A DNA stretch of 32,000 nt from Ignicoccus hospitalis KIN4/I (GCF_000017945.1 NC_009776.1:360001-392000), one strand, 5' to 3'; shown: positions 3,308-29,449, counted from the stretch's first letter. Made by a program: numbers and translations. The notes: generated by a model not told the origin, from the sequence alone.

Positions 3308-4246
3308 ATGTACGCGCTCCCCAACACCGACGCTGAGAAGGTGAGGGCCGGAGGGCTGGAGGTACTGAAGTTGGACGCCGACCCCGTCAGCAAGAGGGAG
3401 AACTACATAAAGTCCTACTTGATAGTCGGGCCCGAGGCTAGAGTACTCGTAGAGACCGGTCCCAGAAACGCCTTCGAAGTGCTCAAGGATTCCTTGGAAT
3501 CTAAAGGGTTCTCCTTGAGGGAGCTGGACGCCGTGCTCCTCACCCACATCCACTTGGACCACGCGGGGGGCTTGGGGGAGGTGTTGAAGGAGTGTAACTG
3601 CAAGGCCTACGTCCACCCCAAGGGCTTGAGGCACTTGGTGGACCCGAGCAAGCTCAACGAGGCCGCCGCTAGAACCTTGGGGAAGGAGATCTTCGAGGCC
3701 TACGGGCCCGCCACCCCCGTGGAGGAGAGCAAGCTCGTGGCGACAGAGGAGGGAGCGCTGAAGGTGGGGGAGGTGGAGGTGCGGGTGGTCCACACGCCCG
3801 GCCACGCCCCCCACCACCAAGCGTTCCTAGTCAACGGCCTGCTGTTCCCCGGGGACGCCTTGGGGGAGGTGACCACTTGGAAGGGCGCCTACACCCCCAC
3901 CACTCCTCATAGAACCATAGTGAGTATGATGATAGATTCGATAAACAAACTGATGGAACTGGAGCCTTGGGCCGCTGCCTATACCCACAGGGGGTTTGTT
4001 GTGGGGAAGGACAACATCTTGTTGCAGATGGCCGGCGAGGTGGAGCAGCTCAGGACGTGGTTGCAAACGATAATGATTAGGAAGGACGAGTGCAAGGAAG
4101 ACGTGTGGTGCTACTTGAGGCACTTGAAGGTCGCCGACCCCTTGTTGGAAGCCCTCGAGGACGAGCTGGAGAGGAGCAGCTTGTTGAAGAACTCGGTGAG
4201 GATGAGTATAGACGGAATATATAGGTACGTGCTCAAAGTATCTTGA
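3308..4246 (+). CDS. Metallo-beta-lactamase-fold hydrolase
   Basis: Canonical HxHxDH motif (LTHIHLDHAGG), a downstream HTPGH motif and a further conserved Asp/His region. Confidence 0.8.
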   Translation: MYALPNTDAEKVRAGGLEVLKLDADPVSKRENYIKSYLIVGPEARVLVETGPRNAFEVLKDSLESKGFSLRELDAVLLTHIHLDHAGGLGEVLKECNCKAYVHPKGLRHLVDPSKLNEAAARTLGKEIFEAYGPATPVEESKLVATEEGALKVGEVEVRVVHTPGHAPHHQAFLVNGLLFPGDALGEVTTWKGAYTPTTPHRTIVSMMIDSINKLMELEPWAAAYTHRGFVVGKDNILLQMAGEVEQLRTWLQTIMIRKDECKEDVWCYLRHLKVADPLLEALEDELERSSLLKNSVRMSIDGIYRYVLKVS

Positions 4247-5054
4247 CGTAGTCGAAGAGCCCCACCTTCAACTTCACCCTCACTTTCAACTTTCTCATCA
4301 TTCTTTCCTTGACGACCTTCGCTATCTCTTCAGAAACCTTATACCCGCTGAAGAGACCCACCTTCGCGTCCGGCGACTTCTCGGCGAGGACTATGACGTC
4401 CACCATCTCGTTGGCCATATCGAGGAGCACTATATAATCCTTCAAGACCAGTCCGACGGAAGTGGCCACTGCCCTTATCATCTCGTCGAGCACCACGTCG
4501 GCTATCATAAATATCACCTTCCCTTCCATGCTGACGGCGAGGATCACGGGCTGGGGATACCTCTCCTCCTTCAGGACCTTCATTACGTACTGCCACAACA
4601 TCTTGGCGGCTCCGTGTATGGATATTGAGATGGTCTTTTTCTTCTCCAACCTAAACTTGAATACCCAGAGTCCCGTGTCTTCGTCCTTCTCCTTGACGAA
4701 GTCTATTATATCGAACGGCGCGTTGTTGGAAATTTCTGCCAAGTTCCACTTTATCTTCTCGTATATTTCCTCTATTAGGTCCCTCTTGGTAGACTTCTCC
4801 TCTTCCCGCTGGACCTCCTCCGCTTTCGGCAGCTTGAGCGAGAGGATTTGGGAAAGCTTGTCTGCCTTTATCAAGACTAAGTACAACGCGTTTTCGTCGA
4901 CGTTCTCGATATTCTCCTTGTTAACTATAATCATGACGGGCTCGTCCTCCTCCAAGGGGATTATTCGGACCTCCTCCGCGAGCTCCACCAAGCCTAGGAG
5001 CTCCGACCCCCTAACCACTCCGAACACGTGTTTCAAGGCGATCACCCTCGGCAC
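4233..5054 (-). CDS. Hypothetical protein (273 aa), co-directional with and 12 nt downstream of the ThiI-like gene
   Basis: Long ORF with Lys/Glu/Ile-rich composition typical of this genome's coding regions. No diagnostic motif recognised. Confidence 0.6.
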   Translation of the reverse strand: MPRVIALKHVFGVVRGSELLGLVELAEEVRIIPLEEDEPVMIIVNKENIENVDENALYLVLIKADKLSQILSLKLPKAEEVQREEEKSTKRDLIEEIYEKIKWNLAEISNNAPFDIIDFVKEKDEDTGLWVFKFRLEKKKTISISIHGAAKMLWQYVMKVLKEERYPQPVILAVSMEGKVIFMIADVVLDEMIRAVATSVGLVLKDYIVLLDMANEMVDVIVLAEKSPDAKVGLFSGYKVSEEIAKVVKERMMRKLKVRVKLKVGLFDYVKIL

Positions 5055-5066
5055 GCTCGTGTCTCT

Positions 5067-5669
5067 TCATCCCAGCGCGGTTAGCTCGGAAGCCCTCCTC
5101 ACTGCGACCCTCCTTGAGAGGTGGAGGTTTTTCCTAATTATGAACTCTAGCGCGCGGGCCTTGGCCCCCCGCGGGGGCTTGGTGGCCACGGGCTCCGGCT
5201 TGAAGGGGCACTGGACCGCGCTCCCCGCTTGGGCCAAGGGGTCCTCCACCCCCAAGTCCTCCTTGTCCGACCCGAACAAGGGCCGGAGGACCTTAACGCC
5301 TCGGGAGACGAAGGCGGCGTTCTGGAGGGTCTGGGAGGCCACTTGCCCCAGAGAGTCCCCCATTATCGGGACCCCGTGCTGGGAGGCCCTCAAAACCATG
5401 CCCCTCTTGCAAGCCAGACAGAGGTACTCGCCCATTTGGTGCTTGGCCAGCTCGGCGCTCACCGCCTTCAAGAACGGCCTGTGGTCGTACAGCACCACCT
5501 CCGGGTCGAGCGCGCTCAAGGCTCTCAGTGCGAGCAAGGTCTGTCGGAAGTTTACTATAAAATGGGCAACTCTTTTGGGCCTCAGAACTTGCAAGAGGTA
5601 AAAGCTGTCGAGGCCGCCGGAAAACAATAAAATTCCCTCGTCGACGCTCTGCTCCCGAGTGTCCCTCAT
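5067..5669 (-). CDS. thiI: Stand-alone PP-loop ATP pyrophosphatase, ThiI C-terminal-domain-like
   Basis: SGGLDS PP-loop motif and the ThiI-type motif GDSLGQVASQTLQN...LRPLFGSDKED. I trimmed the start to ATG at 5669 (MRDTREQ...). The 78 upstream codons of the track ORF run antisense through hypD and are Ser/Thr/Trp-rich. Confidence 0.75.
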   Translation of the reverse strand: MRDTREQSVDEGILLFSGGLDSFYLLQVLRPKRVAHFIVNFRQTLLALRALSALDPEVVLYDHRPFLKAVSAELAKHQMGEYLCLACKRGMVLRASQHGVPIMGDSLGQVASQTLQNAAFVSRGVKVLRPLFGSDKEDLGVEDPLAQAGSAVQCPFKPEPVATKPPRGAKARALEFIIRKNLHLSRRVAVRRASELTALG

Positions 5670-6804
5670 GACGATCCCCCAAGAGCTCGTCCAGAAGACA
5701 GTCGAGGCGATAAGGGGTTTAGCTAAGGAGGCAGTCAAGAAGAAGAACAAAGAAGTTATAAAAATTATGCACGTGTGCGGGACCCACGAACACACGGTAA
5801 CCCACAACGGCTTGAGGTCCTTAATGCCCCCAGAGGTGGAGCTCATAGCCGGCCCCGGGTGCCCGGTCTGCGTGACCCCCGCTGCGGCGGTGGACGCGCT
5901 CATAGACCTCTCCTTGAGCGGGGTTAGGGTCTACGCCTACGGGGACGTCTACAAGCTCCCGGGGACAAAGGGCTCTCTGGCGGTGGCCAAGGCGAGGGGA
6001 GGGGACGTCAAGGTCGTTTACGGCTTCTTGGACGCTATAAGGGACGCCAAGCAGTACGGGAAGGAGGCGGTGTTCTTCGGAGTAGGGTTCGAGACCACGG
6101 TAGTCACCGTGGCCGGGCCGATATACGACGGCAGGGTGCCGAAGAACTTGAAGGTGCTCTCCGCCTACTTGCTCACCGCCCCCGGGCTCAAGAGGGCTAT
6201 AGAGGCCCACGAGGCCACCGGGATACCGCTGGACGGCATAATAGCCCCCGGCCACGTGTCCAGCGTAATAGGCGCGAACGCTTGGAAGTACTTGCCGGAG
6301 GAGTTCGGCTTCCCGACCGTGGTGGCCGGGTTCGAGGCGTACGACTACTTGCTCGCCGTAGCGGAGATACTTAGGCAAATAGTTAGGGGAGAGGCCAAGC
6401 TAGTGAACGAGTACTCTAGGGTGGTGAGGCCGGAAGGCAACGTTACTGCTTGGAGGAAGGTGATGGAAGTATTCGACGTGGTGGACGCGTATTGGAGGGG
6501 GATAGGGGTGTTGCCGGAGAGCGGGCTGGCCTTCAAGGAGAAGTACAAGGACTACGACGCTGCAGCGGAATACGGGATAGAGATCAAGCCGACTGAGAGG
6601 GAGCTGCCCCCGGGCTGCAAGTGCGCGGAGATAAACTTGGGCATAGCGAAGCCCACGGACTGTCCGTACTTCAAGACCCGCTGTACGCCCACCACCCCCA
6701 TAGGGCCTTGCATGGTGAGCGACGAGGGGACTTGCTCCATATGGGCTAGGTTCGGCGGAGGAGGGCTGGTGGAGGAGCTGGCGAGGCTGGCCGGGATAGA
6801 GTGA
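5659..6804 (+). CDS. hypD: [NiFe]-hydrogenase maturation factor HypD
   Basis: Motifs HVCGTHEHT, GPGCPVCVTP and GFETT, plus a Cys-rich C-terminal region. The start is GTG at 5659 or ATG at 5668. Confidence 0.9.
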   Translation: MSLMTIPQELVQKTVEAIRGLAKEAVKKKNKEVIKIMHVCGTHEHTVTHNGLRSLMPPEVELIAGPGCPVCVTPAAAVDALIDLSLSGVRVYAYGDVYKLPGTKGSLAVAKARGGDVKVVYGFLDAIRDAKQYGKEAVFFGVGFETTVVTVAGPIYDGRVPKNLKVLSAYLLTAPGLKRAIEAHEATGIPLDGIIAPGHVSSVIGANAWKYLPEEFGFPTVVAGFEAYDYLLAVAEILRQIVRGEAKLVNEYSRVVRPEGNVTAWRKVMEVFDVVDAYWRGIGVLPESGLAFKEKYKDYDAAAEYGIEIKPTERELPPGCKCAEINLGIAKPTDCPYFKTRCTPTTPIGPCMVSDEGTCSIWARFGGGGLVEELARLAGIE

Positions 6805-13138: not shown

Positions 13139-14701
13139 TTACTCCAAAATGCCCTCCGGCAAGGCCGTTTCCACCTTCTCCCGGAGCTCCTCCGCTATGG
13201 CGTTAGCCTCCCTCACTATCTTTATGACGCTCTCCACGTCCCCCTCCGCCGCCTTCTGGCGGGCGAGCTCCTTGAGCTCTGAGAGCCGGGAGACCTTCTG
13301 GTAGACCTCCTCGCAGTCGCCGACGAGGAACAAGTAAACTACCACCTCCCCCGGGGGCGGCAAGCTTATCCCCAGCTCCTCCTCCGCGTCCCACACGTCC
13401 TTCATCTTCTTGTACGTTTTGATGGCACACTTGACGAGTTCCAGTGCCCTTTCGCAGCCCATCTGCTCGGCCAAGTGGACGGAGGTCGGCACTTGGGCGG
13501 CGAGTAAGTCGGCGCTAGCTATGTCGAACAGCTTCTCCAGCTCTTCAGAGAGCTTAACGATGCACGTGGCGTTGTTAACTATTGTGTCCAGCCACCTTTC
13601 GAACCTCTCGCAGCCGCCCTTTAGGACCTCCACCACGTCCTCTAAGGTAATTATGTTCCTAATTACCTTCCTCAAGTCTGTTATCCTCTTCTGCAGACAA
13701 ACCAATAACTCCGGCATCTTCTCCCCTAACTGTTTCAGCGCGTAGAACTCATCCACGTTCACGTCTGGAGCCAACATCCCTATGGTGCGCCACAAGGCCT
13801 TCTCCAAGGCCTCGCAAACCACCTTACCTTCCTTGATGCACTTGCTCGCCTTCACAAGCTCCTCGACGACCTTGCCGGCCTTGGGGGTCGCCACGGTCTC
13901 CAGCTCCCCGTTTTCCAGTACTACCACCACCTCGATGGAGGTGGGCGAGTAGTCCAGCGAGGTAGGGGTGCCCTCGAGGTCTACCGAGCTTACCTCGGAG
14001 CCCAACTGGTTCAAGAAGGCGAGTCGCTTCTCCGAGCTTATTGACACTACTATCTCGTCCCCCTTGGGGTTCCACATCAAGTCAGAGACGTTCTTGTACT
14101 TCGCTAACACCTTGAACTCGAATGTCTCATCCTTAGTATTTATAGAATAGATGTGACCGCTGGCGTCGGAGGCCAACAAGAAGGGGCCCCAGGAGAGGCC
14201 AGTAATTATGGACTGGAAGTCTGCGCTCCAGATCACTTTGCCCTTGTTCAAATCAAAAATTAACAGCCTCCCATCCTTGCTCCCCAAGGCGACGAACTCG
14301 CCCTTGCCGGCCACCCTCCAAACGGAGTACCCCACGTTGAATATTTCAATTCCTTTACCCTCTATCTTGGCCAACCAGCCCTCCCCTACGGCGAGCACCT
14401 TCTTGTCCTTGGTCTCCACCATGTGCTCCACTTGTGAGGGGACTTCGAAGGAGTACTTCTTCTCCAAGTTCCTGTCCAAAACAATTATTTTATCTTCCGT
14501 GCCCAAGTATAAAGTTCCTTGGGAAGACCAGAGGACCGAGTGCACGGGAGGCTCGGGCTTGTCCAGCACTATTTTGCCCTCGTGGGGCTCCACTATTTGA
14601 AATCCCTTGCTCCCCAAGGCGGTCGCTATGTACTTCGGCCCCCAGCTGACGTCCTCAGGCGGCGTTAACAAGCGAACTTTCAGCCTCTTAACGCTCATCA
14701 C
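13139..14701 (-). CDS. Beta-propeller (WD40/PQQ-like) N-terminal half fused to an all-helical C-terminal half; function unknown
   Basis: Residues about 1-290 show repeated short-strand patterns (LGSKDGRLLIFDL, LLASDASGHIYSI, MWNPKGDEIVVS). Residues about 290-520 are Leu/Glu/Lys-rich with helical periodicity. An AT-rich TATA-like element lies at 14717-14734 upstream. Confidence 0.75.
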   Translation of the reverse strand: MMSVKRLKVRLLTPPEDVSWGPKYIATALGSKGFQIVEPHEGKIVLDKPEPPVHSVLWSSQGTLYLGTEDKIIVLDRNLEKKYSFEVPSQVEHMVETKDKKVLAVGEGWLAKIEGKGIEIFNVGYSVWRVAGKGEFVALGSKDGRLLIFDLNKGKVIWSADFQSIITGLSWGPFLLASDASGHIYSINTKDETFEFKVLAKYKNVSDLMWNPKGDEIVVSISSEKRLAFLNQLGSEVSSVDLEGTPTSLDYSPTSIEVVVVLENGELETVATPKAGKVVEELVKASKCIKEGKVVCEALEKALWRTIGMLAPDVNVDEFYALKQLGEKMPELLVCLQKRITDLRKVIRNIITLEDVVEVLKGGCERFERWLDTIVNNATCIVKLSEELEKLFDIASADLLAAQVPTSVHLAEQMGCERALELVKCAIKTYKKMKDVWDAEEELGISLPPPGEVVVYLFLVGDCEEVYQKVSRLSELKELARQKAAEGDVESVIKIVREANAIAEELREKVETALPEGILE

Positions 14702-24048: not shown

Positions 24049-24234
24049 TCAAGGCTTTATGTAGACTATTATTTCTTCCCCGGTGGCCGGGTCCCTCCTC
24101 CGCACGTAACCGCTGTAGGGGCCGGTCCGGGACCACTCCACCAGCTCTGTGAACCTCTTCAAGGGAGGGTACTGAGGGACCATGGTTATTTTGCTCTCGT
24201 CGAAAACGTCTATCTTCCTAATGATATATACCAT
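24049..24234 (-). CDS. Small hypothetical protein (61 aa)
   Basis: ATG start preceded by a GAGGGGG element, with an oligo-T stretch after the stop. No motif recognised. Confidence 0.45.
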   Translation of the reverse strand: MVYIIRKIDVFDESKITMVPQYPPLKRFTELVEWSRTGPYSGYVRRRDPATGEEIIVYIKP

Positions 24235-24246
24235 GGACTGCCCCCT

Positions 24247-24378
24247 CGTAGAGCTCTTCCCCTTCCCCGGTTAATGCCCTTGCTGAGCGTCCAAAAGCGA
24301 TTTAGCTGTTAGTTGAAAACTCGCTCGGGAACGAGCTCGTGTTGGCGGCCTCCCGGAGCTTCTGGACGTAGAGCTCTT
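24247..24378. promoter_or_regulatory. Two exact copies of CGTAGAGCTCTT (palindromic core AGAGCTCT) spaced 120 nt apart in a divergent intergenic region
   Basis: The copies lie at 24247-24258 and 24367-24378. One is 13 nt upstream of the minus-strand 61-aa ORF and the other 32 nt upstream of the + strand ATG at 24410. Confidence 0.35.
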
Positions 24379-24409
24379 ATCCCGGTACACGGAGGAAGAG
24401 AGAATAAAA

Positions 24410-24892
24410 ATGTTTAAGGAATTGAGGGATAAGTACTTGGAGTACTTGTCAAACACCACTTTCAGCGGCGTGAGGAACGACGTGGTCCGGTCCTTCGAGT
24501 GGAACTTGTTGGCCCTCGCATACAGCTTGAGGAACTCTGAAAAGTCGGAGGCCAAGGAGATCGTAAAGCAGTACCCCCAGAAGTACTACGACTTGCTCGA
24601 GATATACCACAAGCTGAAAGCGATAGATAGGTTGAGCGAAAGGGAGATAATTGAGAAAATAAAGAGGAAGGAATCGAAAATATACGGGATAGTGGTAGAG
24701 TACTATCCGTACTTGAACCACTTGCTGACCGACGACGGGCTGTGGAGCGACCCGGAGACGGATACCTTGATCTTAACTACGATACGGGGGAAGCTCGACC
24801 ACATCTTGGCGAAGTACGCCATCCAAGAAGGTTGGGACTTGTTGATCTTCGAGCTCGTGAGGGCCTTGAGGGCCCGAAGCCGAGGGAGCTGA
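24410..24892 (+). CDS. Hypothetical protein (160 aa); coding signal appears to continue in the -1 frame to 25080
   Basis: ATG start in an A/T-richer segment. The last codons (cga agc cga) are atypical, while the -1 frame reads good codons from about 24874. Confidence 0.55.
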   Translation: MFKELRDKYLEYLSNTTFSGVRNDVVRSFEWNLLALAYSLRNSEKSEAKEIVKQYPQKYYDLLEIYHKLKAIDRLSEREIIEKIKRKESKIYGIVVEYYPYLNHLLTDDGLWSDPETDTLILTTIRGKLDHILAKYAIQEGWDLLIFELVRALRARSRGS

Positions 24893-25080
24893 AAGAGAGG
24901 GTCGACCTAACTTCCAAGAGTTTCGCTGAGATCTCGAGGAAGCTCGAAGTACTGAAAAATACAAATGAGGAGTTCGTGAGGTCTTTGCAAGAGCTGAATG
25001 AGGCGGTGGTGGAGCTGGAGGAGAGGTGGAGGGCTAGGAGGTTGGGCGCAGGGTACTCGAGGGCCTTACTTAGGGCCTGA
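24874..25080 (+). other. Start-less coiled-coil coding segment in the -1 frame relative to the 24410 ORF
   Basis: Reads PKPRELKERVDLTSKSFAEISRKLEVLKNTNEEFVRSLQELNEAVVELEERWRARRL... with host-like codons. There is no ATG/GTG/TTG in frame before the GTG at about 24976. Confidence 0.4.
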
Positions 25081-25087
25081 GAAAAGC

Positions 25088-25095
25088 TTAATTTT
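25088..25095 (+). promoter_or_regulatory. TATA-like element TTAATTTT preceded by a purine-rich GAAAAG (BRE-like)
   Basis: Lies about 32-39 nt upstream of the TTG at 25127. The zinc-ribbon ORF at 20638 shows the same spacing. Confidence 0.3.
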
Positions 25096-25126
25096 CTAGT
25101 GAGACGTTCGAATTTGAGGGAATGTC

Positions 25127-25258
25127 TTGGCCTCGTGGCCCTTCGGGAAAAAGAAGAAGGAGCTCGCCTTGGAAGCCCTCAGCCCCTACGGCGCTGAGGG
25201 GCCCGAAGGGCGGTACGAGGACTTGTTCGAGAGGTTAAGGAGGGCCGAGGAGGGTTGA
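25127..25258 (+). CDS. Small ORF (43 aa), not in the track; may be the N-terminal part of the following propeller gene
   Basis: My translation is (M)ASWPFGKKKKELALEALSPYGAEGPEGRYEDLFERLRRAEEG*. An in-frame stop lies at 25115-25117. The stop overlaps the TTG start of the next gene (TTGA). Confidence 0.4.
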   Translation: MASWPFGKKKKELALEALSPYGAEGPEGRYEDLFERLRRAEEG

Positions 25259-26265
25259 AGCTCGAGCTGTTGTGGACATTCGATCAGCCTAGCAATGGTA
25301 TTAAAGACATGGCCTTCTCGCCCAACGGCAACTTGGGAATAGCCTCCAAAGACCGCTGCGCCTACATCCTCGATCCCAACGGGAACTTGTTGGGGAAGGA
25401 GTGCGGAGGAGGCATTATGGCTGGGGCCGGCTACTCCAACAGAGTGTTCGGCTTCGTTAATACCGATGACTACGTCTACCTCTTCTACGAGGACGGGACC
25501 TTCTGGAAGAAGATAGAGGTTGGAGACAGTCACGATTTAGCAATTGCCCTCTTCGATAACGGCTTCGTGGCTTGTGATGACTATTGCGCCAAGTACGACT
25601 TCAACGGGAACAAGCTATGGGACACTGAGGTTGACGGTGTTGCAGACGTTGTAGTTCACAAGGGCTACGTTTACGCGGCTAACTGGTGGAGCAACAAGCT
25701 CCAAATACTGGACTTGAATACTGGCAGAACAATCAATGAGATAAGCTATGATTACTATTCTGACGACTACTGTTCCGACAGCGTCAACGCTTGTGGAAAT
25801 TACCTAGCAGTAATCGCCGGGGAGCTTTACGTTTACGACATTTCGGATCCGACAAGTCCGAAGCTTCTGTGGAAGAGCAATGGACTGGACGTTCATGGGA
25901 AGCACACCCCGGCCTTCTCTCCGGACTGCAAGTACATAGCAGTTGCAGACAACTATTGGGACGACGAACCGGATGGAAATAACATGCTCAAGATATTCGA
26001 CATAAACGGAAATTTAGTCTACTCTAAGGAGATGTACGGAATTTGGAACGTAGCTTGGTGGAAGGACAGGTTGGCGGTTGGGTACGTGCTCTACGATGGA
26101 CTAATCTATGACGGTGAGGTCGAGATGTACAAAATAATTGGTTACGAACCTCCCCCCGAACCTTCGAGCGCCTCGGAGCCCCTTCCGAACCTCACCGAGG
26201 CCATACCCTGCGGGAGCTCGAGCTCAAGCCCCTCTGGGCCTTCGAGGAGGCAGAAGGAAGGGTGA
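25255..26265 (+). CDS. Beta-propeller repeat protein, paralogue 1 (A/T-richer copy)
   Basis: Repeated strand motifs are FSPNGNLGIASKD, YDFNGNKLW, FSPDCKYIAVAD, IFDINGNLVY and VAWWKDRLAVGY. It is collinear with the next gene, including the near-identical 18-mer ttctc(t/c)ccggactgcaag. Confidence 0.75.
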   Translation: MKLELLWTFDQPSNGIKDMAFSPNGNLGIASKDRCAYILDPNGNLLGKECGGGIMAGAGYSNRVFGFVNTDDYVYLFYEDGTFWKKIEVGDSHDLAIALFDNGFVACDDYCAKYDFNGNKLWDTEVDGVADVVVHKGYVYAANWWSNKLQILDLNTGRTINEISYDYYSDDYCSDSVNACGNYLAVIAGELYVYDISDPTSPKLLWKSNGLDVHGKHTPAFSPDCKYIAVADNYWDDEPDGNNMLKIFDINGNLVYSKEMYGIWNVAWWKDRLAVGYVLYDGLIYDGEVEMYKIIGYEPPPEPSSASEPLPNLTEAIPCGSSSSSPSGPSRRQKEG

Positions 26266-27235
26266 GGAAAGCAATCGCCTCCCCCGGGGGCTCGATAGGC
26301 TTCGCGTCCGGCAGCTGCGGCTACGTAGTGGACGAGAGTGGGGTCTTCCAAGGCGTGGATTGCGGAAACGAGATGATGGACGTTAGCCAAGCGAACGGGC
26401 TCTTCGCCTTCTTGGACGGGGAGGGAAGGTCTACCTCCTCTACGACGACAGCGTGTGGAAGAGGTTGGATGTCGGGGAGGAGTACTCCAAGGCCTTGGCC
26501 CTCTTGAATGAAGGCTTGATCTCTTGCGGCGAGCTGTGCGGGAAGTTCGACTTAGACGGGAACGGCTTGTGGAGCTTTGAACTGGGCGGGGAGGCGGCCG
26601 GGGTGGTCGTAAACAAGGACTTCGCCTTCGTCTTGGATAAGGAGAACAAGAGGCTCTTGGTAGTTGACTTGGACTCCGGGAGGGCAGTTAGGGAGAGGAA
26701 GTACCTCCGAGAGCCCTTAGCAATAGCCTCGTGCGGCAAGTACTTGGCAGTGGCGACTTCAAACAAACTCTTCTTGTACGACGTGGGCGACAGGAGGAGG
26801 CAGAGGGCCCTCTCGCAAGCGAGGCTCGAGCTGGGAACGCCCTCGCTCGCGTTCTCCCCGGACTGCAAGCGGCTCGCGGTCTTGGGCGGGGGGAGACTTC
26901 GCCTCTTGGACTTGAACGGCGAAGTCTTGTGCGAGGCCCCCTTGCCCCGGGCCTCCTCGGTCGCTTGGTGGAGGGACGAACTGATAATAGGGTTCGAGGA
27001 CGGGAGGTTGGCCGCTTACGAGCTCGAGGGCTACAAGCCGACGGTGAAGGTAGTGAAGGAGAGGTCCGTCGATCTCCCGGTCTTGAAATTCTTCCCAATG
27101 GAGGTCAAAGGGAAGGTCTTTGAGGCCGAACTGAAGCTGGTGCCGGAGCCCCTCTCCGGGAGGTGGAGCTGCTCCAAGGTGGGCGAGGGGACCAAGCGGT
27201 CATTTACAAGTGCTGGAGGGACGAGGAAACCATAG
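26262..27235 (+). pseudogene. Beta-propeller repeat protein, paralogue 2, split over two frames (-1 break at about 26421-26425)
   Basis: The first frame reads ...SQANGLFAFLDGE(G). The -1 frame continues GKVYLLYDDSVWKRLDVG. Together these align residue for residue with paralogue 1 (NRVFGFVNTDDYVYLFYEDGTFWKKIEVG). Later blocks FSPDCKRLAV and VAWWRDELIIGF also match. Confidence 0.7.
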
Positions 27236-27951
27236 CCTTGAGGGTTGCGAAGGGCTTCGTGGAGGTCCTCGTGGGGGAGGCGCCAACCGTAACGCCCTCG
27301 CAGTTCTCGAGCTTCTTAAAGGAGGTGTCGAGGCAAGCGCTCCTCAAGCACCCTTACTTGCTGGAGGTGAAGGGCTACTCTGAGGAGTACCCCTTGGTGG
27401 CCTACGAGTTCGCGGACGGGGGGAGCCTGGAGTACCAGCTCGCCCGGGGGTGGGAGCCATTGCCGGAGGAGGCCTTGGCGGTTGGAATAAGGGTCGGGGA
27501 GGCGCTGGAGTACCTCCACTCCCGCGGCTTCGTGCACGGGGACGTAAAGCCCTCAAACGTGTTCGCCTTCACGAAGGGAATAGTTAAGCTTGGGGACTTG
27601 CAGAGCTTGAAGAAGGCGATGGCGAGGACCACGGGGAAGCTCTACTTCACCCCGGGCTTCGCCGCCCCGGAGCAGTACTTCTTGGACTTGAGGGAGCCGG
27701 GGGAGGAGGAGAAGGTAGACTCCTACCAGCTAGCCAACTTGGTGCTTTACTTGCTCAAGAGGGAGAGCGTGGACGGGGAAGAGCTGGCCTCGGGGAACGC
27801 GGACTTGGAGGAGGCCTTGGGAGGGCTAGGGGAGCTGGGGGAGGTATTGAAGAGGGGGCTCAAGGTTAGGCCCTCCGAGAGGGCGAGCGTAGGGGAGCTG
27901 GTGGAGGAGTTCAAGGCCCTCTTGGAGAAGCTCGGGGGAGGCGAGGGGTGA
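27163..27951 (+). CDS. Eukaryotic-type Ser/Thr protein kinase domain protein
   Basis: Catalytic loop HSRGFVHGDVKPSNV, Mg-loop LGDLQS, FAAPEQ (APE), hinge LVAYEFADGGSL and alphaC E in LKEVSRQALLKHPYLLEV. The track start at 27163 (GTG) overlaps the upstream ORF by 73 nt. Confidence 0.8.
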   Translation: MELLQGGRGDQAVIYKCWRDEETIALRVAKGFVEVLVGEAPTVTPSQFSSFLKEVSRQALLKHPYLLEVKGYSEEYPLVAYEFADGGSLEYQLARGWEPLPEEALAVGIRVGEALEYLHSRGFVHGDVKPSNVFAFTKGIVKLGDLQSLKKAMARTTGKLYFTPGFAAPEQYFLDLREPGEEEKVDSYQLANLVLYLLKRESVDGEELASGNADLEEALGGLGELGEVLKRGLKVRPSERASVGELVEEFKALLEKLGGGEG

Positions 27952-28034
27952 AAGGCTTCTACGCTCAGCGCGCCACAGTAAGGTCGGCGGCCCTCAACGG
28001 GCTTAACGGCCGAAGCGCCTTGGAAGTCCTAGCC

Positions 28035-28694
28035 TCACCTCTTAGCCAGCGCCTCCACCACCTTGCCCAGCATGTCAGCCACCAACTTCATCTGGGAGTT
28101 CAGCCCCGCCATCCCCGCCTTCAGTTCGTCCATCGACTGCTCTATGTCGTCCATCCTCTTGCTGAGCTCTTCTTTCAGTTCATCTATCCTTTTGTTCAAC
28201 CTCCCTTCCATGAGCTTCATCTCTTCCCACAACTGGTCGATCTTCCTATTGGTCTCATCGATCCTATTGTTCAACTCGTTCCTGACGTCCTCGATCTTCC
28301 TATTGAGCTCCTCCTTAACCTCGTCGATCCTTTTGTTAGTTTCGTCTATCCTACTGTTCAACCTCTTCTCTACCTCATCTATTCTCTTGTCCAGCCTCTT
28401 CTCAACTTCCCTCAACTCCACTCTGTTGAGCTCTATTTGTTTGGACAGTACCTCGTAGCTCACCTTGGTTTGGTTCAGGACCATGAAGAGCAGGATGAAG
28501 TTCGCTTCGGAATCCGTAATTGGCTTGCCCGCCCTGAGCTTGTCGAGTATTTCTGCGAACTTCTGGGAAGCGTACTGGAAGGCCAAGTCCAGCAGTTGAT
28601 CGGGAAGGGACACGGCCCTTACCCTCCTAGCTTTGTCCGCAATTGTTATAAATAAGTTCAATTCTCTCCGGTCTGTCACAGTCGGCACTTGCAT
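28035..28694 (-). CDS. Coiled-coil protein with a reiterated (R/K)-I-D-E motif
   Basis: KRIDEVEKRLNSRIDETNKRIDEVKEELNRKIEDVRNELNNRIDETNRKIDQL...NKRIDELKEELSKRMDDIEQ. Motif spacing is 11, 7, 11, 11, 7, 18 and 11 residues. The start is uncertain (ATG at 28694 or GTG near 28618). Confidence 0.7.
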   Translation of the reverse strand: MQVPTVTDRRELNLFITIADKARRVRAVSLPDQLLDLAFQYASQKFAEILDKLRAGKPITDSEANFILLFMVLNQTKVSYEVLSKQIELNRVELREVEKRLDKRIDEVEKRLNSRIDETNKRIDEVKEELNRKIEDVRNELNNRIDETNRKIDQLWEEMKLMEGRLNKRIDELKEELSKRMDDIEQSMDELKAGMAGLNSQMKLVADMLGKVVEALAKR

Positions 28695-28732
28695 TCAAAT
28701 AGTAACCCCATCGGGACGGCGGAGTTCTTCAG

Positions 28733-28893
28733 CTTTCCGCCCTCTCCTGAGACTCCACTTGCTGAAACTAGCTTTAAAGGGGAAAGAGATAACAATAACC
28801 TTTCTATCCTCTTTTGAGACTCCACTGAACACGAGAAATGCTTAATCGACAATTCGCTTAAGATCATCTTTCTATCCTCTTTTGAGACTCCAC
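28733..28893 (-). CRISPR. Mini CRISPR-like array: 2 identical 26-nt repeats + 1 degenerate terminal repeat, 2 unrelated spacers (41 and 42 nt)
   Basis: The + strand repeat CTTTCTATCCTCTTTTGAGACTCCAC lies at 28800-28825 and 28868-28893. A 21/26 copy lies at 28733-28758. The minus-strand repeat is GTGGAGTCTCAAAAGAGGATAGAAAG, which has a GAAAG 3' end. The spacers share no similarity. Confidence 0.6.
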
Positions 28894-29170
28894 CGAGCCC
28901 TTCCATATAAAGCCCCAAGGTCTTTCCCTTAAAAGAATTGCGTTCTGCTGTGAATTTACAATTCCTCTGATTTTTCCCTTTATTTGAGAAATTTTTCCTC
29001 TGCCCTTCCCTCCACGATCTTCAGCGTTCCCATGAAAAGATATAAGGGGTTTGAGAGAGTGAATAGTAATGGTGCGCTTTCGAATATAGGATGTTCCCAT
29101 GTGGGCAAAGATGAAAAGGAAATGAGTAAATACAAAGGTTTGGTGATTTGTAATACTTAGGTATCAAAGA
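28894..29170 (-). promoter_or_regulatory. AT-rich putative CRISPR leader
   Basis: This is the most A/T-rich, non-coding-looking stretch in the window. It abuts the intact-repeat end of the array, opposite the degenerate repeat, as expected for a leader on the minus strand. Confidence 0.4.
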
Positions 29171-29315
29171 AAAAGCAACCCAAGGAAGCCTCGGCCCGAA
29201 GGGGCGCTCCGGAAGGGTGGCCAAGGCTAACGAAAGGGAAAGTGTGGACGGGGCAATCGCGATCAAAACCTCAACAGCCCACAGCGCTCTCCAGCTCGGA
29301 AGGAACGACGAGGGG

Positions 29316-29420
29316 TGGAGCCGCCGGCGGGATTTGAACCCGCGACCACCGGCTCTCCGGCCGGTACTCCCAGAGGTACCGGATACAAGGCCGGCGCTCT
29401 GCCAGCTGAGCTACGGCGGC
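29316..29420 (-). tRNA. tRNA-Thr (anticodon UGU) with a 29-nt intron at the canonical 37/38 position and encoded CCA
   Basis: Folded by hand: acceptor GCCGCCG/CGGCGGC, U8A9, D-arm GCTC-AGCTGGCA-GAGC, anticodon stem CCGGC/GCCGG with loop CUUGUAA after removing the intron at 29355-29383, variable loop TGGTC, T-arm GCGGG-TTCAAAT-CCCGC, discriminator U, CCA. Confidence 0.9.
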
Positions 29421-29442
29421 CCTGAGAGGCGACAAAAGGGGG

Positions 29443-29449
29443 TTTATGA
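29443..29449 (-). promoter_or_regulatory. TATA-like element TCATAAA for the tRNA, overlapping the macro-domain gene stop codon
   Basis: Lies at -23 to -29 relative to the tRNA 5' end at 29420. It contains the TAA stop of the upstream CDS. Confidence 0.35.

What the first reader, a model, noticed from the sequence alone, without database searches (positions are those of the whole stretch)
25127..27951. Same-direction (-1) frame breaks link a leader peptide, two beta-propellers and a Ser/Thr kinase into one potential ~940-codon unit
Read in order, coding signal moves from frame to frame, always by -1, and always where one extra base in a short homopolymer would restore continuity. (a) At 25253-25258, ggt tga becomes ggt (t)tg aag, joining ...RLRRAEEG to LKLELLWTF. 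(b) At 26206-26210, ata ccc tgc becomes ccc (c)tg cgg, joining the propeller-1 linker to LRELELKPLWAFEE. That segment has no start codon of its own, yet it parallels the propeller-1 N-terminus KLELLWTFDQ. (c) At 26421-26425, gag gga agg becomes gag g(g)g aag gtc, restoring FLDGEGKVYLLYDDSVWKRLDVG against paralogue 1 FVNTDDYVYLFYEDGTFWKKIEVG. (d) At 27197-27201, aag cgg tca becomes cgg (g)tc att, giving SKVGEGTKRVIYKCWRDEETIALRV. That is a textbook kinase Gly-loop/beta3 region, and its Gly-loop half is encoded only in the upstream frame. Sites (a) and the GTGA at 26262 could be ordinary 4-nt stop/start overlaps. Sites (b)-(d) cannot be explained that way. The rest of the 32 kb shows no such breaks. 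Possible explanations are a decaying multidomain sensor-kinase gene, homopolymer sequencing errors, or recoding by -1 frameshifting.
Basis: seen in the sequence. Interest (0 to 1): 0.75.

Follow-up and report, generated by a model that had tools for sequence, protein, structure and literature searches.

The report
Frameshift-broken propeller–kinase gene in Ignicoccus
A roughly 900-codon gene of the archaeon Ignicoccus hospitalis, encoding two beta-propellers and a protein kinase, is genuinely broken by single-base deletions and looks like a recently dead gene that databases still list as five separate normal genes; it does not look like programmed recoding.

Summary
The window is Ignicoccus hospitalis KIN4/I, genes Igni_0433–0437. 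The frame pattern is real.

Six independent assemblies are base-identical across the locus, so this is not sequencing error.

- **Site (c)** is an unambiguous frameshift inside propeller 2.
- **Site (b)** is a probable frameshift.
- **Site (d)** is probable on codon usage, but the kinase's own frame also reads as a Gly-loop, so protein homology cannot decide.
- **Site (a)** is most likely an ordinary TTGA stop/start overlap, because many family members start exactly there.

I found no slippery heptamer, no long homopolymer and no significant downstream RNA structure. No intact propeller–kinase relative turned up anywhere. Published proteomics recorded zero spectra for Igni_0432–0437, while both flanking genes were detected. 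The kinase also has Arg for the beta3 Lys and DLQ for DFG.

Best reading: a recently pseudogenised, lineage-specific gene cluster in a proteomically silent block, still annotated as five ordinary CDSs. Programmed −1 recoding is not excluded (about 3%).

The parts
24410..24876 (+). Igni_0433 ORFan, the part read in frame 2. The annotated ORF runs on to 24892.
   Evidence: Codon-usage posterior is 1.00 for frame 2. The change point falls after 24876, with support 24865-24876. Published proteomics recorded zero spectra.
24877..25080 (+). Continuation of coding signal in frame 1. This is a fifth same-direction break ('u'), at a GGGCCC run.
   Evidence: No homologues exist outside this strain, so the break rests on codon usage only.
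25087..25098 (+). AT-rich box CTTAATTTTCTA, 29-40 nt upstream of TTG 25127. It is a possible archaeal TATA element; this is an inference.
   Evidence: There is also no oligo-T run of 5 or more on the plus strand between 24231 and 28300.
25127..25258 (+). 43-codon hydrophilic ORF in frame 2 (WP_274377265). It ends in a TTGA overlap with the propeller-1 start.
   Evidence: Codon usage is strongly coding: −145.5 versus −189 nats in the other frames. Exact match to the database entry. No signal-peptide character.
25255..26207 (+). Propeller 1 plus a Pro/Ser-rich linker in frame 1 (Igni_0434). The ORF reads on out of frame to 26265.
   Evidence: AlphaFold model has pLDDT 90.2. Foldseek matches WDR5 with TM 0.72, a 7-bladed WD40-like propeller. 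It is 61% identical to I. islandicus P0147. GC3 is 0.646, the lowest of 25 genes in the window.
26202..26219 (+). Break (b): frame 1 to frame 0, at ATACCCTGCGGG.
   Evidence: Change point. Frame 0 has no start codon between its opening at 26118 and GTG 26262. Tandem-propeller homologues P0146 and P0149 carry similar P/S/T linkers.
26208..26423 (+). Propeller 2, first ~72 codons, in frame 0. The annotated 81-aa ORF 26262-26507 covers part of it.
   Evidence: LRELELKPLWAFEE... aligns to the N-terminal strand of propeller 1 and of P0001.
26420..26431 (+). Break (c): frame 0 to frame 2, inside propeller 2 at GGGGAGGGAAGG.
   Evidence: Change point. Colinear homology runs across it. By alignment to the propeller-1 model it falls among the early strands, roughly blades 2-3.
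26426..27198 (+). Rest of propeller 2 (to about 27052), then a ~49-codon tail that includes a kinase beta1/Gly-loop-like KVGEGTKR. All in frame 2 (Igni_0435; the ORF runs to 27235).
   Evidence: All nine near-invariant family positions are retained in propeller 2.
27193..27201 (+). Break (d): frame 2 to frame 1, at AAGCGGTCATT.
   Evidence: Change point. Over 27163-27198, frame 2 scores −38.4 nats and frame 1 scores −49.1. In real genes fewer than 0.6% of 12-codon windows reach even −5. Protein-level tests are equivocal.
27200..27951 (+). Hanks-type protein kinase domain in frame 1 (Igni_0436 / WP_083756872, annotated from GTG 27163).
   Evidence: Pkinase 69-70 bits against a cut-off of 31.7. 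The HGD Asp, Lys, Asn and APE motifs are present. The beta3 Lys is Arg (IALRV) and DFG is DLQ.
28035..28694 (-). paREP15-type coiled-coil protein (Igni_0437), convergent with the kinase. It belongs to the same proteome-silent block.
   Evidence: 81% identical to I. islandicus EYM_02220. A homologue sits immediately upstream of the propeller gene P0001 in L001. Zero spectra in published proteomics.

Best explanation
The region holds a lineage-specific gene cluster of Ignicoccus hospitalis that has recently been inactivated.

**Layout.** A small 43-codon ORF comes first. It is followed, across an ordinary TTGA overlap, by what was one ~900-codon gene starting at TTG 25255. That gene encoded WD40-like propeller 1, a Pro/Ser linker, propeller 2, a ~50-residue linker and a C-terminal Hanks-type kinase.

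**Damage.** The gene now carries three single-base deletions at short G/C runs, at about 26208, 26424 and 27199. Each pushes the downstream reading into the −1 frame. The ORFan just upstream (Igni_0433) carries a similar lesion at about 24876.

**Consequence.** Ribosomes are expected to terminate shortly after each break. At most an isolated propeller 1 with a junk tail, and an N-terminally ambiguous kinase, could be made. Propeller 2 cannot fold from its 81-aa and 260-aa fragments.

**Ancestral function (inferred).** A cytoplasmic sensor kinase whose propellers bound a ligand or partner.

**What is shown and what is inferred.** Shown: the frame breaks, their exact places, the accuracy of the sequence, and homology across (c). 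Inferred: that (b) and (d) are deletions in a once-continuous ORF, and that the locus is non-functional.
For: - **Sequence is correct.** Six independent assemblies are identical to the window.
- **Sharp frame switches.** Codon-usage change points fall within a few bases of each proposed site. A Viterbi frame segmentation finds no comparable chain of switches elsewhere in the 32 kb.
- **Site (c).** Propeller 2 aligns end to end with propeller 1 (5e-56) and with intact P0001 (6e-41) only if the frame is changed at 26424. The stretch 26426-26452 lies upstream of the first start codon of its frame.
- **Site (b).** The conserved first strand of propeller 2 lies upstream of any start codon. Single-ORF tandem propellers with P/S/T linkers exist (P0146, P0149).
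- **Site (d).** Frame 2 beats frame 1 by 10.7 nats in 27163-27198, then collapses after 27199. BLASTP to kinase P0008 starts 19 residues upstream of the break in frame 2 (VPEPLSG....KVGEG) and gains 7.7 bits.
- **No recoding signals**.
- **Proteomics.** Giannone et al. 2011 (PMC3149612, supplementary file 2) list zero spectra for Iho_0432-0437. The flanking Iho_0431 and Iho_0438 were detected.
- **Kinase residues.** Arg replaces the beta3 Lys and DLQ replaces DFG. This fits relaxed constraint.
- **Long overlaps.** The overlaps at the breaks are 58-73 nt, against the 4-nt overlaps typical elsewhere in the window.
Against: - **No intact relative.** No propeller–propeller–kinase relative was found, so the fused ancestor is not demonstrated. 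This covers the 5.8-billion-protein search, the 1.84-billion representative search plus a Pfam scan of 42 long hits, and the genome and metagenome scans.
- **No divergent allele.** All other assemblies come from the same strain. There is therefore no dN/dS test and no evidence on the age of the breaks.
- **Site (d) is equivocal at protein level.** The native frame also reads GxGxxA-VIYK.
- **Mixed composition.** Propeller 1 has GC3 0.65, against 0.82-0.88 for everything around it. The unit may therefore be a mosaic, and (b) may be a recombination scar.
- **Little visible decay.** Propeller 2 keeps all nine near-invariant family residues, and the repaired reading has no stop in 942 codons. If the gene is decaying, the decay is very recent.
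- **Weak negative evidence.** Zero spectra is weak evidence for low-abundance proteins.
Confidence: 0.72

Rival explanations
1. The region is an operon of separate genes (43-aa ORF, propeller 1, propeller 2, kinase) with overlapping ends, and only site (c) is a true lesion. On this reading propeller 1 (Igni_0434) and the kinase (from GTG 27163) are intact and possibly functional. Propeller 2 has lost its start codon or uses GTG 26262, and is broken once.
For: - NTGA overlaps always place the downstream gene in the −1 frame. Both TTGA at 25255 and GTGA at 26262 are of this type, which explains part of the 'same direction' pattern.
- Family members start exactly at the propeller-1 start.
- The kinase's own frame gives MELLQGGRGDQAVIYK, a Gly-loop. 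It scores as well as or better than the repaired version (Pfam 69.2 versus 70.1; hhalign 171.1 versus 166.6).
- In the bacterial kinases aligned here the kinase domain lies at or near the N-terminus, ahead of the other domains.
- None of the 42 long family members scanned has a kinase.
- Propeller 1 has a different composition from its neighbours.
Against: - Codon usage changes sharply inside the 58- and 73-nt overlaps, not at their ends. Frame 1 in 27163-27198 uses rare codons (CAA twice, GGT, CGA) and loses by 10.7 nats.
- Frame 1 in 26208-26261 loses to frame 0 by 6.7 nats.
- The conserved first strand of propeller 2 has no start codon upstream.
- Overlaps of 58-73 nt are atypical next to the 4-nt overlaps seen elsewhere in the window.
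- None of the ORFs was detected in the proteome.
Confidence: 0.2
2. Programmed recoding: ribosomes shift −1 at three or four sites, or the mRNA is edited or slipped, to make a full-length ~100-kDa propeller–propeller–kinase. This could act as a regulatory device.
For: - All breaks go in the same direction.
- The repaired reading has no stop codon in 942 codons, and propeller 2 keeps every signature residue.
- The sequence is stable across assemblies made from separate sequencing runs and samples.
- One downstream segment, after (c), folds better than 194 of 200 shuffles (z = −2.0).
- A partial heptamer G GGA AGG lies at (c).
- From my own knowledge, −1 frameshifting is documented in a crenarchaeon (Saccharolobus solfataricus fucA1).
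Against: - No canonical X XXY YYZ heptamer lies in any of the windows where both frames are open. No homopolymer is longer than 6, and none is an A or T run of slippage length.
- Four of the five downstream segments fold no better than shuffles, and the fifth does not survive multiple testing.
- Three or four serial low-efficiency events would leave a negligible yield.
- No peptides from any of the ORFs were detected.
- The breaks share no sequence motif.
- The kinase lacks the beta3 Lys.
Confidence: 0.03
3. Artefact: the frame breaks are base-calling or assembly errors in the 2007 reference genome.
For: [quoted passage not shown] The genome paper had noted that this enzyme appears as two adjacent ORFs that might be a pseudogene. 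I read this as a corrected reference error. All sites lie at short G/C runs.
Against: Two JGI metagenome contigs, one NCBI third-party MAG contig and three Logan read-assembly contigs show zero differences across the locus. One contig covers site (a), six cover (b) and (c), and five cover (d).
Confidence: 0.01
4. Mosaic or insertion origin: propeller 1 is a laterally acquired or recombined segment dropped between the 43-codon leader and an older leader–propeller 2–kinase gene. Breaks (a) and (b) would then be the two edges of one ~952-nt insert (length ≡ 1 mod 3), not independent events.
For: - Deleting 25256-26207 joins the leader in frame to LRELELKPLW; this is my arithmetic on the frames.
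- GC3 is 0.86 in the leader, 0.65 in propeller 1 and 0.82 in propeller 2, with a sharp jump at (b).
- The same 10-nt palindrome AGCTCGAGCT sits just inside both edges. A 29-nt imperfect inverted repeat (25240-25268 / 26215-26243) brackets the segment.
- The predicted duplex between the two edges is the best of 134 windows tested (−57.8 versus a background of −37.9 ± 7.1).
Against: - The upstream composition boundary is near 25450, not at (a).
- The next-best duplex is nearly as good (−56.4), and other inverted repeats of similar quality occur in the region.
- The palindrome is explained by paralogy, because it encodes the LEL of the first strand.
- There is no bulge-helix-bulge geometry, so an intron reading is unsupported.
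- Breaks (c) and (d) are not explained.
- TTG 25255 coincides with a natural family start.
Confidence: 0.1

Closest known systems
Frameshift-disrupted pseudogenes that automatic annotation lists as several adjacent CDSs. An example in the same genome is the acetyl-CoA synthase pair Igni_0256/0257, discussed in Podar et al. 2008 (PMC2614490).
   Same: Adjacent same-strand ORFs carry successive parts of one domain series. The ORFs overlap by long stretches. Homology continues upstream of the first start codon of the downstream ORF.
   Different: As I read the proteomics paper, the Igni_0256/0257 case was resolved by a corrected sequence and annotation. Here the breaks are confirmed by six independent assemblies. 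There are three to five of them within 3.5 kb, and no intact orthologue is known.
Programmed −1 ribosomal frameshifting, for example fucA1 of Saccharolobus solfataricus, bacterial dnaX, and IS-element transposases. This comparison rests on my own knowledge.
   Same: Two overlapping ORFs with the downstream one in the −1 frame, in a crenarchaeon.
   Different: Those systems have one shift at a slippery heptamer (A AAA AAT in fucA1), often with a downstream structure. Here there are three or four shifts, no slippery heptamer and no significant structure.
Bacterial Hanks-type Ser/Thr kinases fused to WD40 or PQQ beta-propellers, for example PkwA-type proteins. P0012 and P0013 carry both Pkinase and WD40 Pfam domains.
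   Same: A eukaryotic-like kinase domain combined with a seven-bladed propeller, presumably as a sensor or scaffold.
   Different: From my own knowledge, the known fusions usually carry the kinase N-terminal to the propeller. Here the kinase would be C-terminal, after two propellers of a different family: archaeal arCOG02491, which is usually secreted and fused to DUF2341 or coiled coils. The kinase also has Arg for the beta3 Lys.
The archaeal arCOG02491 'WD40' propeller family, which is expanded in Ignicoccus. Podar et al. 2008 counted 10 WD40 genes.
   Same: Propeller 1 is 61% identical to I. islandicus P0147 and 44% to P0001 and P0146. Propeller 2 is 33% identical to P0001. Both carry the family signature (LW, CAY, C..FD..G..W, CG.YLAV, AFSPDC, VAWW).
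   Different: Most relatives have a signal peptide and extracellular partner domains. These two have none. The supplementary table assigns both Iho_0434 and Iho_0435 to arCOG02491, so if Podar's count of 10 follows that assignment, two of the 10 are pieces of this broken locus.

Membership tests
Frameshift pseudogene | Homology to intact proteins continues colinearly across a change of reading frame. | tested here: met
   Site (c): BLASTP of repaired propeller 2 against propeller 1 (5e-56) and P0001 (6e-41), with no gap at the junction. Site (b): the N-terminal strand aligns upstream of any start codon. Site (d): one BLASTP gains 7.7 bits, but the profile tests are equivocal.
Frameshift pseudogene | The breaks are in the genome, not in the reads or the assembly. 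| tested here: met
   Six independent contigs show zero differences.
Frameshift pseudogene | An intact, single-ORF counterpart exists in relatives. | tested here: not met
   Tandem propellers in one ORF exist (P0146, P0149). No propeller–kinase fusion or close orthologue was found.
Frameshift pseudogene | No protein product is made. | tested here: inconclusive
   Published shotgun proteomics lists zero spectra for Iho_0432-0437, while the flanking genes were detected. The search database did not contain trans-frame sequences, and negative evidence from shotgun data is weak.
Frameshift pseudogene | Relaxed selection (dN/dS near 1, loss of key residues). | tested here: inconclusive
   No diverged allele is available, so dN/dS cannot be computed. 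The kinase has K→R at beta3 and DFG→DLQ. Propeller 2 keeps all nine near-invariant residues.
Programmed −1 ribosomal frameshifting | A slippery heptamer X XXY YYZ in the zero frame within the overlap. | tested here: not met
   None was found in any of the five overlap windows. The only partial matches are G GGA AGG at (c) and CCCGGAG, which lies far from break u.
Programmed −1 ribosomal frameshifting | A stimulatory downstream hairpin or pseudoknot. | tested here: not met
   The 90-nt downstream segments give z-scores of +0.40, +0.75, +0.47, −1.99 and −1.11 against shuffles. Pseudoknots were not modelled.
Programmed −1 ribosomal frameshifting | Conservation of the shift site in orthologues, and a trans-frame product. 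| not testable with these tools
   No orthologues are known.
Transcriptional slippage | A long A or T homopolymer (about 8-9 nt or more) at the shift site. | tested here: not met
   The longest runs in the overlap windows are C6, G5 and A4.
Archaeal bulge-helix-bulge intron (tested for the segment 25256-26207) | Two 3-nt bulges separated by a 4-bp helix, formed by the two boundaries. | tested here: not met
   The cofolded boundaries give a long imperfect helix with symmetric 1×1 and 2×2 mismatches, and no BHB.
Hanks-type protein kinase (Pfam PF00069) | A domain match above the gathering score. | tested here: met
   69.2-70.1 bits against a cut-off of 31.7. There are 530 PDB kinase sequences with E ≤ 1e-5.
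Hanks-type protein kinase (Pfam PF00069) | The full catalytic residue set: Gly-loop, beta3 Lys, alphaC Glu, HRD Asp, Asn, DFG, APE. | tested here: not met
   Measured against the invariant columns of 32 kinases as aligned. Glu, Asp, Lys, Pro, Asn, the DFG Asp, APE and the late Arg are present. The beta3 Lys is Arg (IALRV), the DFG Gly is Gln (DLQ), and HRD is HGD.
WD40-like seven-bladed beta-propeller | A closed propeller fold. | tested here: met
   Propeller 1: AlphaFold2 pLDDT 90.2, pTM 0.86, 27 strands. Foldseek matches WDR5, RACK1 and ATG16L1 with TM 0.70-0.72 and E about 1e-14. Propeller 2 is inferred from 32% identity over its full length.

The most novel reading that the evidence does not exclude
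I. hospitalis makes a full-length propeller–propeller–kinase by serial −1 recoding at non-canonical sites. Alternatively, the same-direction breaks at 24876, 26208, 26424 and 27199 mark a locus-specific mechanism, either mutational or translational, that keeps the gene switchable. The stop-free repaired frame and the fully conserved propeller-2 signature would then reflect continuing selection rather than recent death.
Probability: 0.03. Interest if true: 0.85.

Novelty: new member of a known kind. Interest (0 to 1): 0.25.

Why it matters
**Annotation.** Five RefSeq CDSs (WP_274377265, WP_011998469, WP_148202212, WP_011998470, WP_083756872) are probably not five proteins. Apart from the 43-codon ORF, they look like pieces of one broken gene. 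If the published count of '10 WD40 proteins' in this minimal genome follows the arCOG02491 assignment, it includes two fragments of this locus.

**Genome biology.** I. hospitalis has one of the smallest genomes of any free-living organism, with only 12 putative pseudogenes reported. A ~4.6-kb block that is silent in the proteome and carries three to five frameshifts gives a rare view of ongoing gene loss in a streamlined host of Nanoarchaeum equitans.

**If the minority reading were true.** Recoding here would be an unprecedented multi-site frameshift in Archaea.

Tried and rejected
- **Divergent orthologues.** I looked for one to test whether the breaks are conserved and to compute dN/dS. The genome-contig scan and the metagenome-contig scan returned only distant kinases. 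Every other assembly carrying the locus is base-identical and from the same strain.
- **Propeller–kinase fusions.** I looked for them among family members. None of the 42 long hits scanned has Pkinase.
- **Break 'u'.** I tried to validate it by homology. The repaired 223-aa protein has no relatives.
- **L001 neighbour.** I tested whether the 220-aa protein upstream of P0001 in L001 is an Igni_0433 homologue. It is instead a paREP15 / Igni_0437 homologue.
- **Site (d) by profile methods.** Pfam and hhalign could not discriminate, because G-rich DNA yields a Gly-loop-like peptide in both frames.
- **Intron or inversion around propeller 1.** I tested the flanking inverted repeat. It has no BHB geometry and is only marginally better than background.
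- **Integrated element at the tRNA.** I looked for direct repeats that could mark one. No att-like repeat was found.
- **I. islandicus synteny.** The paREP15 orthologue lies in an unrelated context with a secreted propeller 4.4 kb away and no kinase.
- **File access.** Loci L003-L008 did not appear in the Python sandbox, so I compared the assemblies through DNA alignment instead.

Full report
**Identity of the window**

Exact protein look-ups place the window in the chromosome of Ignicoccus hospitalis KIN4/I. Reverse gyrase is ABU81601. The 336-aa ORF at 25255-26265 is ABU81617, and the supplementary table of PMC3149612 lists it as Iho_0434. The 260-aa ORF at 26453-27235 is ABU81618 (Iho_0435). 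The kinase at 27163-27951 is WP_083756872; an older 237-aa version is ABU81619 (Iho_0436). RefSeq has since added an 81-aa CDS (26262-26507) and a 43-aa CDS (25127-25258). All five are annotated as ordinary proteins.

**Checking the observation**

The five plus-strand ORFs lie in frames 2, 1, 0, 2, 1.

I trained a codon-usage model on 17 intact genes of the window (6,735 codons, GC3 0.83). The frame posterior follows the same path.

The same analysis shows a fifth switch, from frame 2 to frame 1, at 24865-24876. It lies inside the ORFan Igni_0433 and its downstream ORF, at a GGGCCC run. A Viterbi segmentation of the whole window finds no other chain of switches like this one. Pfam scans of 30 ORFs elsewhere in the window turned up no split domains.

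**The sequence is not in error**

I retrieved six contigs assembled independently of the reference and aligned them to the window:
- two JGI metagenome contigs (3300030446, 3300004930)
- the NCBI third-party MAG contig DUJT01000002
- three Logan read assemblies (ERR9765743, ERR9765746, ERR9765749)

They show zero differences across 25100-27960. One contig covers site (a), six cover (b) and (c), and five cover (d). All are the same strain, so they validate the sequence but say nothing about evolution.

**Site (c)**

This is an unambiguous frameshift. Repaired propeller 2 aligns over its full length with propeller 1 (32% identity, 5e-56) and with the intact 870-aa metagenomic protein P0001 (33%, 6e-41). 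There is no gap at the junction. The nine codons after the break (KVYLLYDDS) lie upstream of the first start codon of their frame.

The AlphaFold model of propeller 1 (pLDDT 90.2) is a seven-bladed WD40-like propeller; Foldseek matches WDR5 with TM 0.72. By alignment, the break falls among the early strands, roughly blades 2-3. Neither the 81-aa product nor the 260-aa product could close a propeller.

**Site (b)**

The conserved first strand of propeller 2 (LRELELKPLWAF) is encoded in frame 0. That frame has no ATG, GTG or TTG between its opening at 26118 and GTG 26262. Codon usage there favours frame 0 over frame 1 by 6.7 nats. Relatives with two propellers in one ORF joined by P/S/T-rich linkers exist (P0146 of 948 aa and P0149 of 692 aa).

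A single-base deletion is the most economical reading. Two other readings cannot be excluded:
- loss of a former start codon
- a recombination scar, because GC3 jumps from about 0.6 to about 0.85 exactly here, and propeller 1 (GC3 0.646) is compositionally the most atypical of 25 genes

**Site (d)**

That is not correct. The G-rich DNA reads KVGEGTKR in frame 2 and GGRGDQA in frame 1. The native 262-aa ORF scores as well as the repaired version:
- Pfam Pkinase: 69.2 bits native against 70.1 repaired
- hhalign against 32 related kinases: 171.1 native against 166.6 repaired

Two other lines do favour a frameshift.
- Over 27163-27198, frame 2 beats frame 1 by 10.7 nats. Frame 1 there uses CAA twice, GGT and CGA. 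In real genes fewer than 0.6% of 12-codon windows reach even −5. After 27199, frame 2 collapses, at −63.7 against −41.6.
- BLASTP to kinase P0008 begins 19 residues upstream of the break in frame 2 (VPEPLSGRWSCSKVGEG against VPERLGGYRLLRKLGEG) and gains 7.7 bits over the native ORF.

I put the frameshift reading of (d) at roughly 70-75%.

**Site (a)**

Several family members begin exactly where TTG 25255 lies: P0154 MRLTQLW, P0168 MKLRPLW, P0211 MELELLW and P0236 MDLTLLW, against propeller 1 M-KLELLW. TTGA is a standard 4-nt stop/start overlap, and such overlaps always put the downstream gene in the −1 frame.

The 43-codon ORF has a strong coding signature. An AT-rich box lies 29-40 nt upstream of it. 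It has no homologues outside this strain and no signal-peptide character. It is best treated as a separate small upstream ORF.

**Tests for recoding**

In the windows where both frames are open, there is no X XXY YYZ heptamer and no homopolymer longer than C6. The 90 nt downstream of the five sites fold no better than shuffles, apart from a marginal z of −2.0 after (c). The sites share no motif.

A 29-nt imperfect inverted repeat brackets propeller 1. It gives the best predicted duplex of 134 windows, but only just (−57.8 against −56.4). It has no bulge-helix-bulge geometry.

**Context**

Propeller 1's closest relative is I. islandicus P0147: 61% identical, with a signal peptide, a propeller and a coiled coil, in an unrelated genomic context. 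Most family members are secreted and fused to DUF2341 or coiled coils. None of the 42 long members scanned has a kinase domain. The kinase has only 30-36% identical relatives, most of them from bacterial or unnamed metagenomic sources.

The convergent downstream gene Igni_0437 is a paREP15-type coiled-coil protein. It is 81% identical to I. islandicus EYM_02220. A homologue sits immediately upstream of the propeller gene P0001 in L001.

In the supplementary table of Giannone et al. 2011 (PMC3149612), Iho_0432 to Iho_0437 all have zero spectra. Iho_0431 (TrpA) and Iho_0438 (macro domain) on either side were detected. That study reported measuring more than 75% of predicted proteins.

Against the invariant columns of 32 kinases, the kinase keeps the alphaC Glu, the HxD Asp, Lys-Pro-x-Asn, the DFG Asp and APE. 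It has Arg for the beta3 Lys, DLQ for DFG and HGD for HRD. Propeller 2 keeps all nine near-invariant family positions.

**Interpretation**

The most economical account is a lineage-specific propeller–propeller–kinase gene of about 900 codons starting at TTG 25255. A small upstream ORF and a broken ORFan precede it. The gene has recently been inactivated by single-base deletions at short G/C runs and now sits in a block that is silent in the proteome.

Three features do not make this account improbable:
- **Same direction.** This is expected from a deletion bias, plus one ordinary NTGA overlap.
- **Clustering.** This is expected once the first lesion has removed selection on the rest of the gene.
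- **No stop codons and intact propeller-2 signature.** These indicate that the inactivation is recent.

The main weakness is that no intact fused relative and no diverged allele exist in the data I could search. The fused ancestor is therefore inferred, and selection cannot be measured.

The chief rival is a set of separate overlapping genes with only (c) as a lesion. It stays alive at about 20%, mainly because the kinase's own frame also encodes a plausible N-terminus. Programmed recoding has no positive support and I put it at about 3%. Sequencing error is excluded.

Noticed in passing
window 24410-25080 (+): A fifth same-direction frame switch (frame 2 to frame 1) lies at 24865-24876, at a GGGCCC run. 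It joins Igni_0433 (160 aa) to the downstream 82/112-aa ORF. Repairing it gives a 223-aa ORFan with no homologues outside this strain.
   Followed up: partly
window 28732-28893 (−): Three direct repeats of about 26 nt (GTGGAGTCTCAAAAGAGGATAGAAAG; the last copy is degenerate) recur with a 67-68 nt period, downstream of an AT-rich stretch. This looks like a mini CRISPR array with two spacers. No Rfam CRISPR-DR family reached its gathering score.
   Followed up: partly
window 29319-29420 (−): An intron-containing tRNA gene. ARAGORN could not assign the anticodon (91 nt). Rfam tRNA scores 62.7 bits over 102 nt. It lies next to an 800-nt non-coding stretch (28641-29449).
   Followed up: no
window 25450-26205 (+): The body of propeller 1 has GC3 of about 0.5-0.67, against 0.80-0.97 in the leader, propeller 2 and the kinase. 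The jump at 26208 is sharp. This suggests lateral or recombinational origin for this segment.
   Followed up: partly
window 25240-25268 and 26215-26243: A 29-nt imperfect inverted repeat (25 of 29 paired if G·U pairs are allowed) brackets propeller 1. It is seeded by the 10-nt palindrome AGCTCGAGCT, which is present at both propeller starts. It is only marginally better than background and has no BHB geometry.
   Followed up: yes
window 24049-28694: Six consecutive annotated genes (Iho_0432-0437) have zero spectra in the published proteome, while both flanking genes were detected (PMC3149612 supplementary file 2). The block has lower G+C than its surroundings (0.48-0.53 at 24-26 kb and 28-29 kb).
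   Followed up: partly
window 27200-27951 (+): The kinase domain has Arg where the invariant beta3 Lys should be (IALRV). This is a substitution known to abolish kinase activity. It also has DLQ for DFG and HGD for HRD. It may be a pseudokinase or already degenerating.
   Followed up: partly
L001 7342-10613; L016 5563-10546; window 28035-28694: paREP15-type coiled-coil genes lie next to or near propeller genes of this family in three places: an unrelated metagenomic contig (a 4-nt overlap upstream of P0001), I. islandicus (a secreted propeller 4.4 kb away), and here. This may be a functional pairing.
   Followed up: partly
window 13139-14701 (−): A further WD40 protein (Igni_0419, 520 aa) lies next to reverse gyrase. 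It is intact and was detected in the proteome with 44 and 38 spectra. Unlike the broken pair, it is expressed.
   Followed up: no
window 5067-5070 (−): The ThiI-like ORF 5067-5903 ends in an ATGA overlap. The next large ORF (4233-5054) has no Pfam match. The frame segmentation treats 4239-5682 as one frame. I did not resolve whether these are one gene or two.
   Followed up: no
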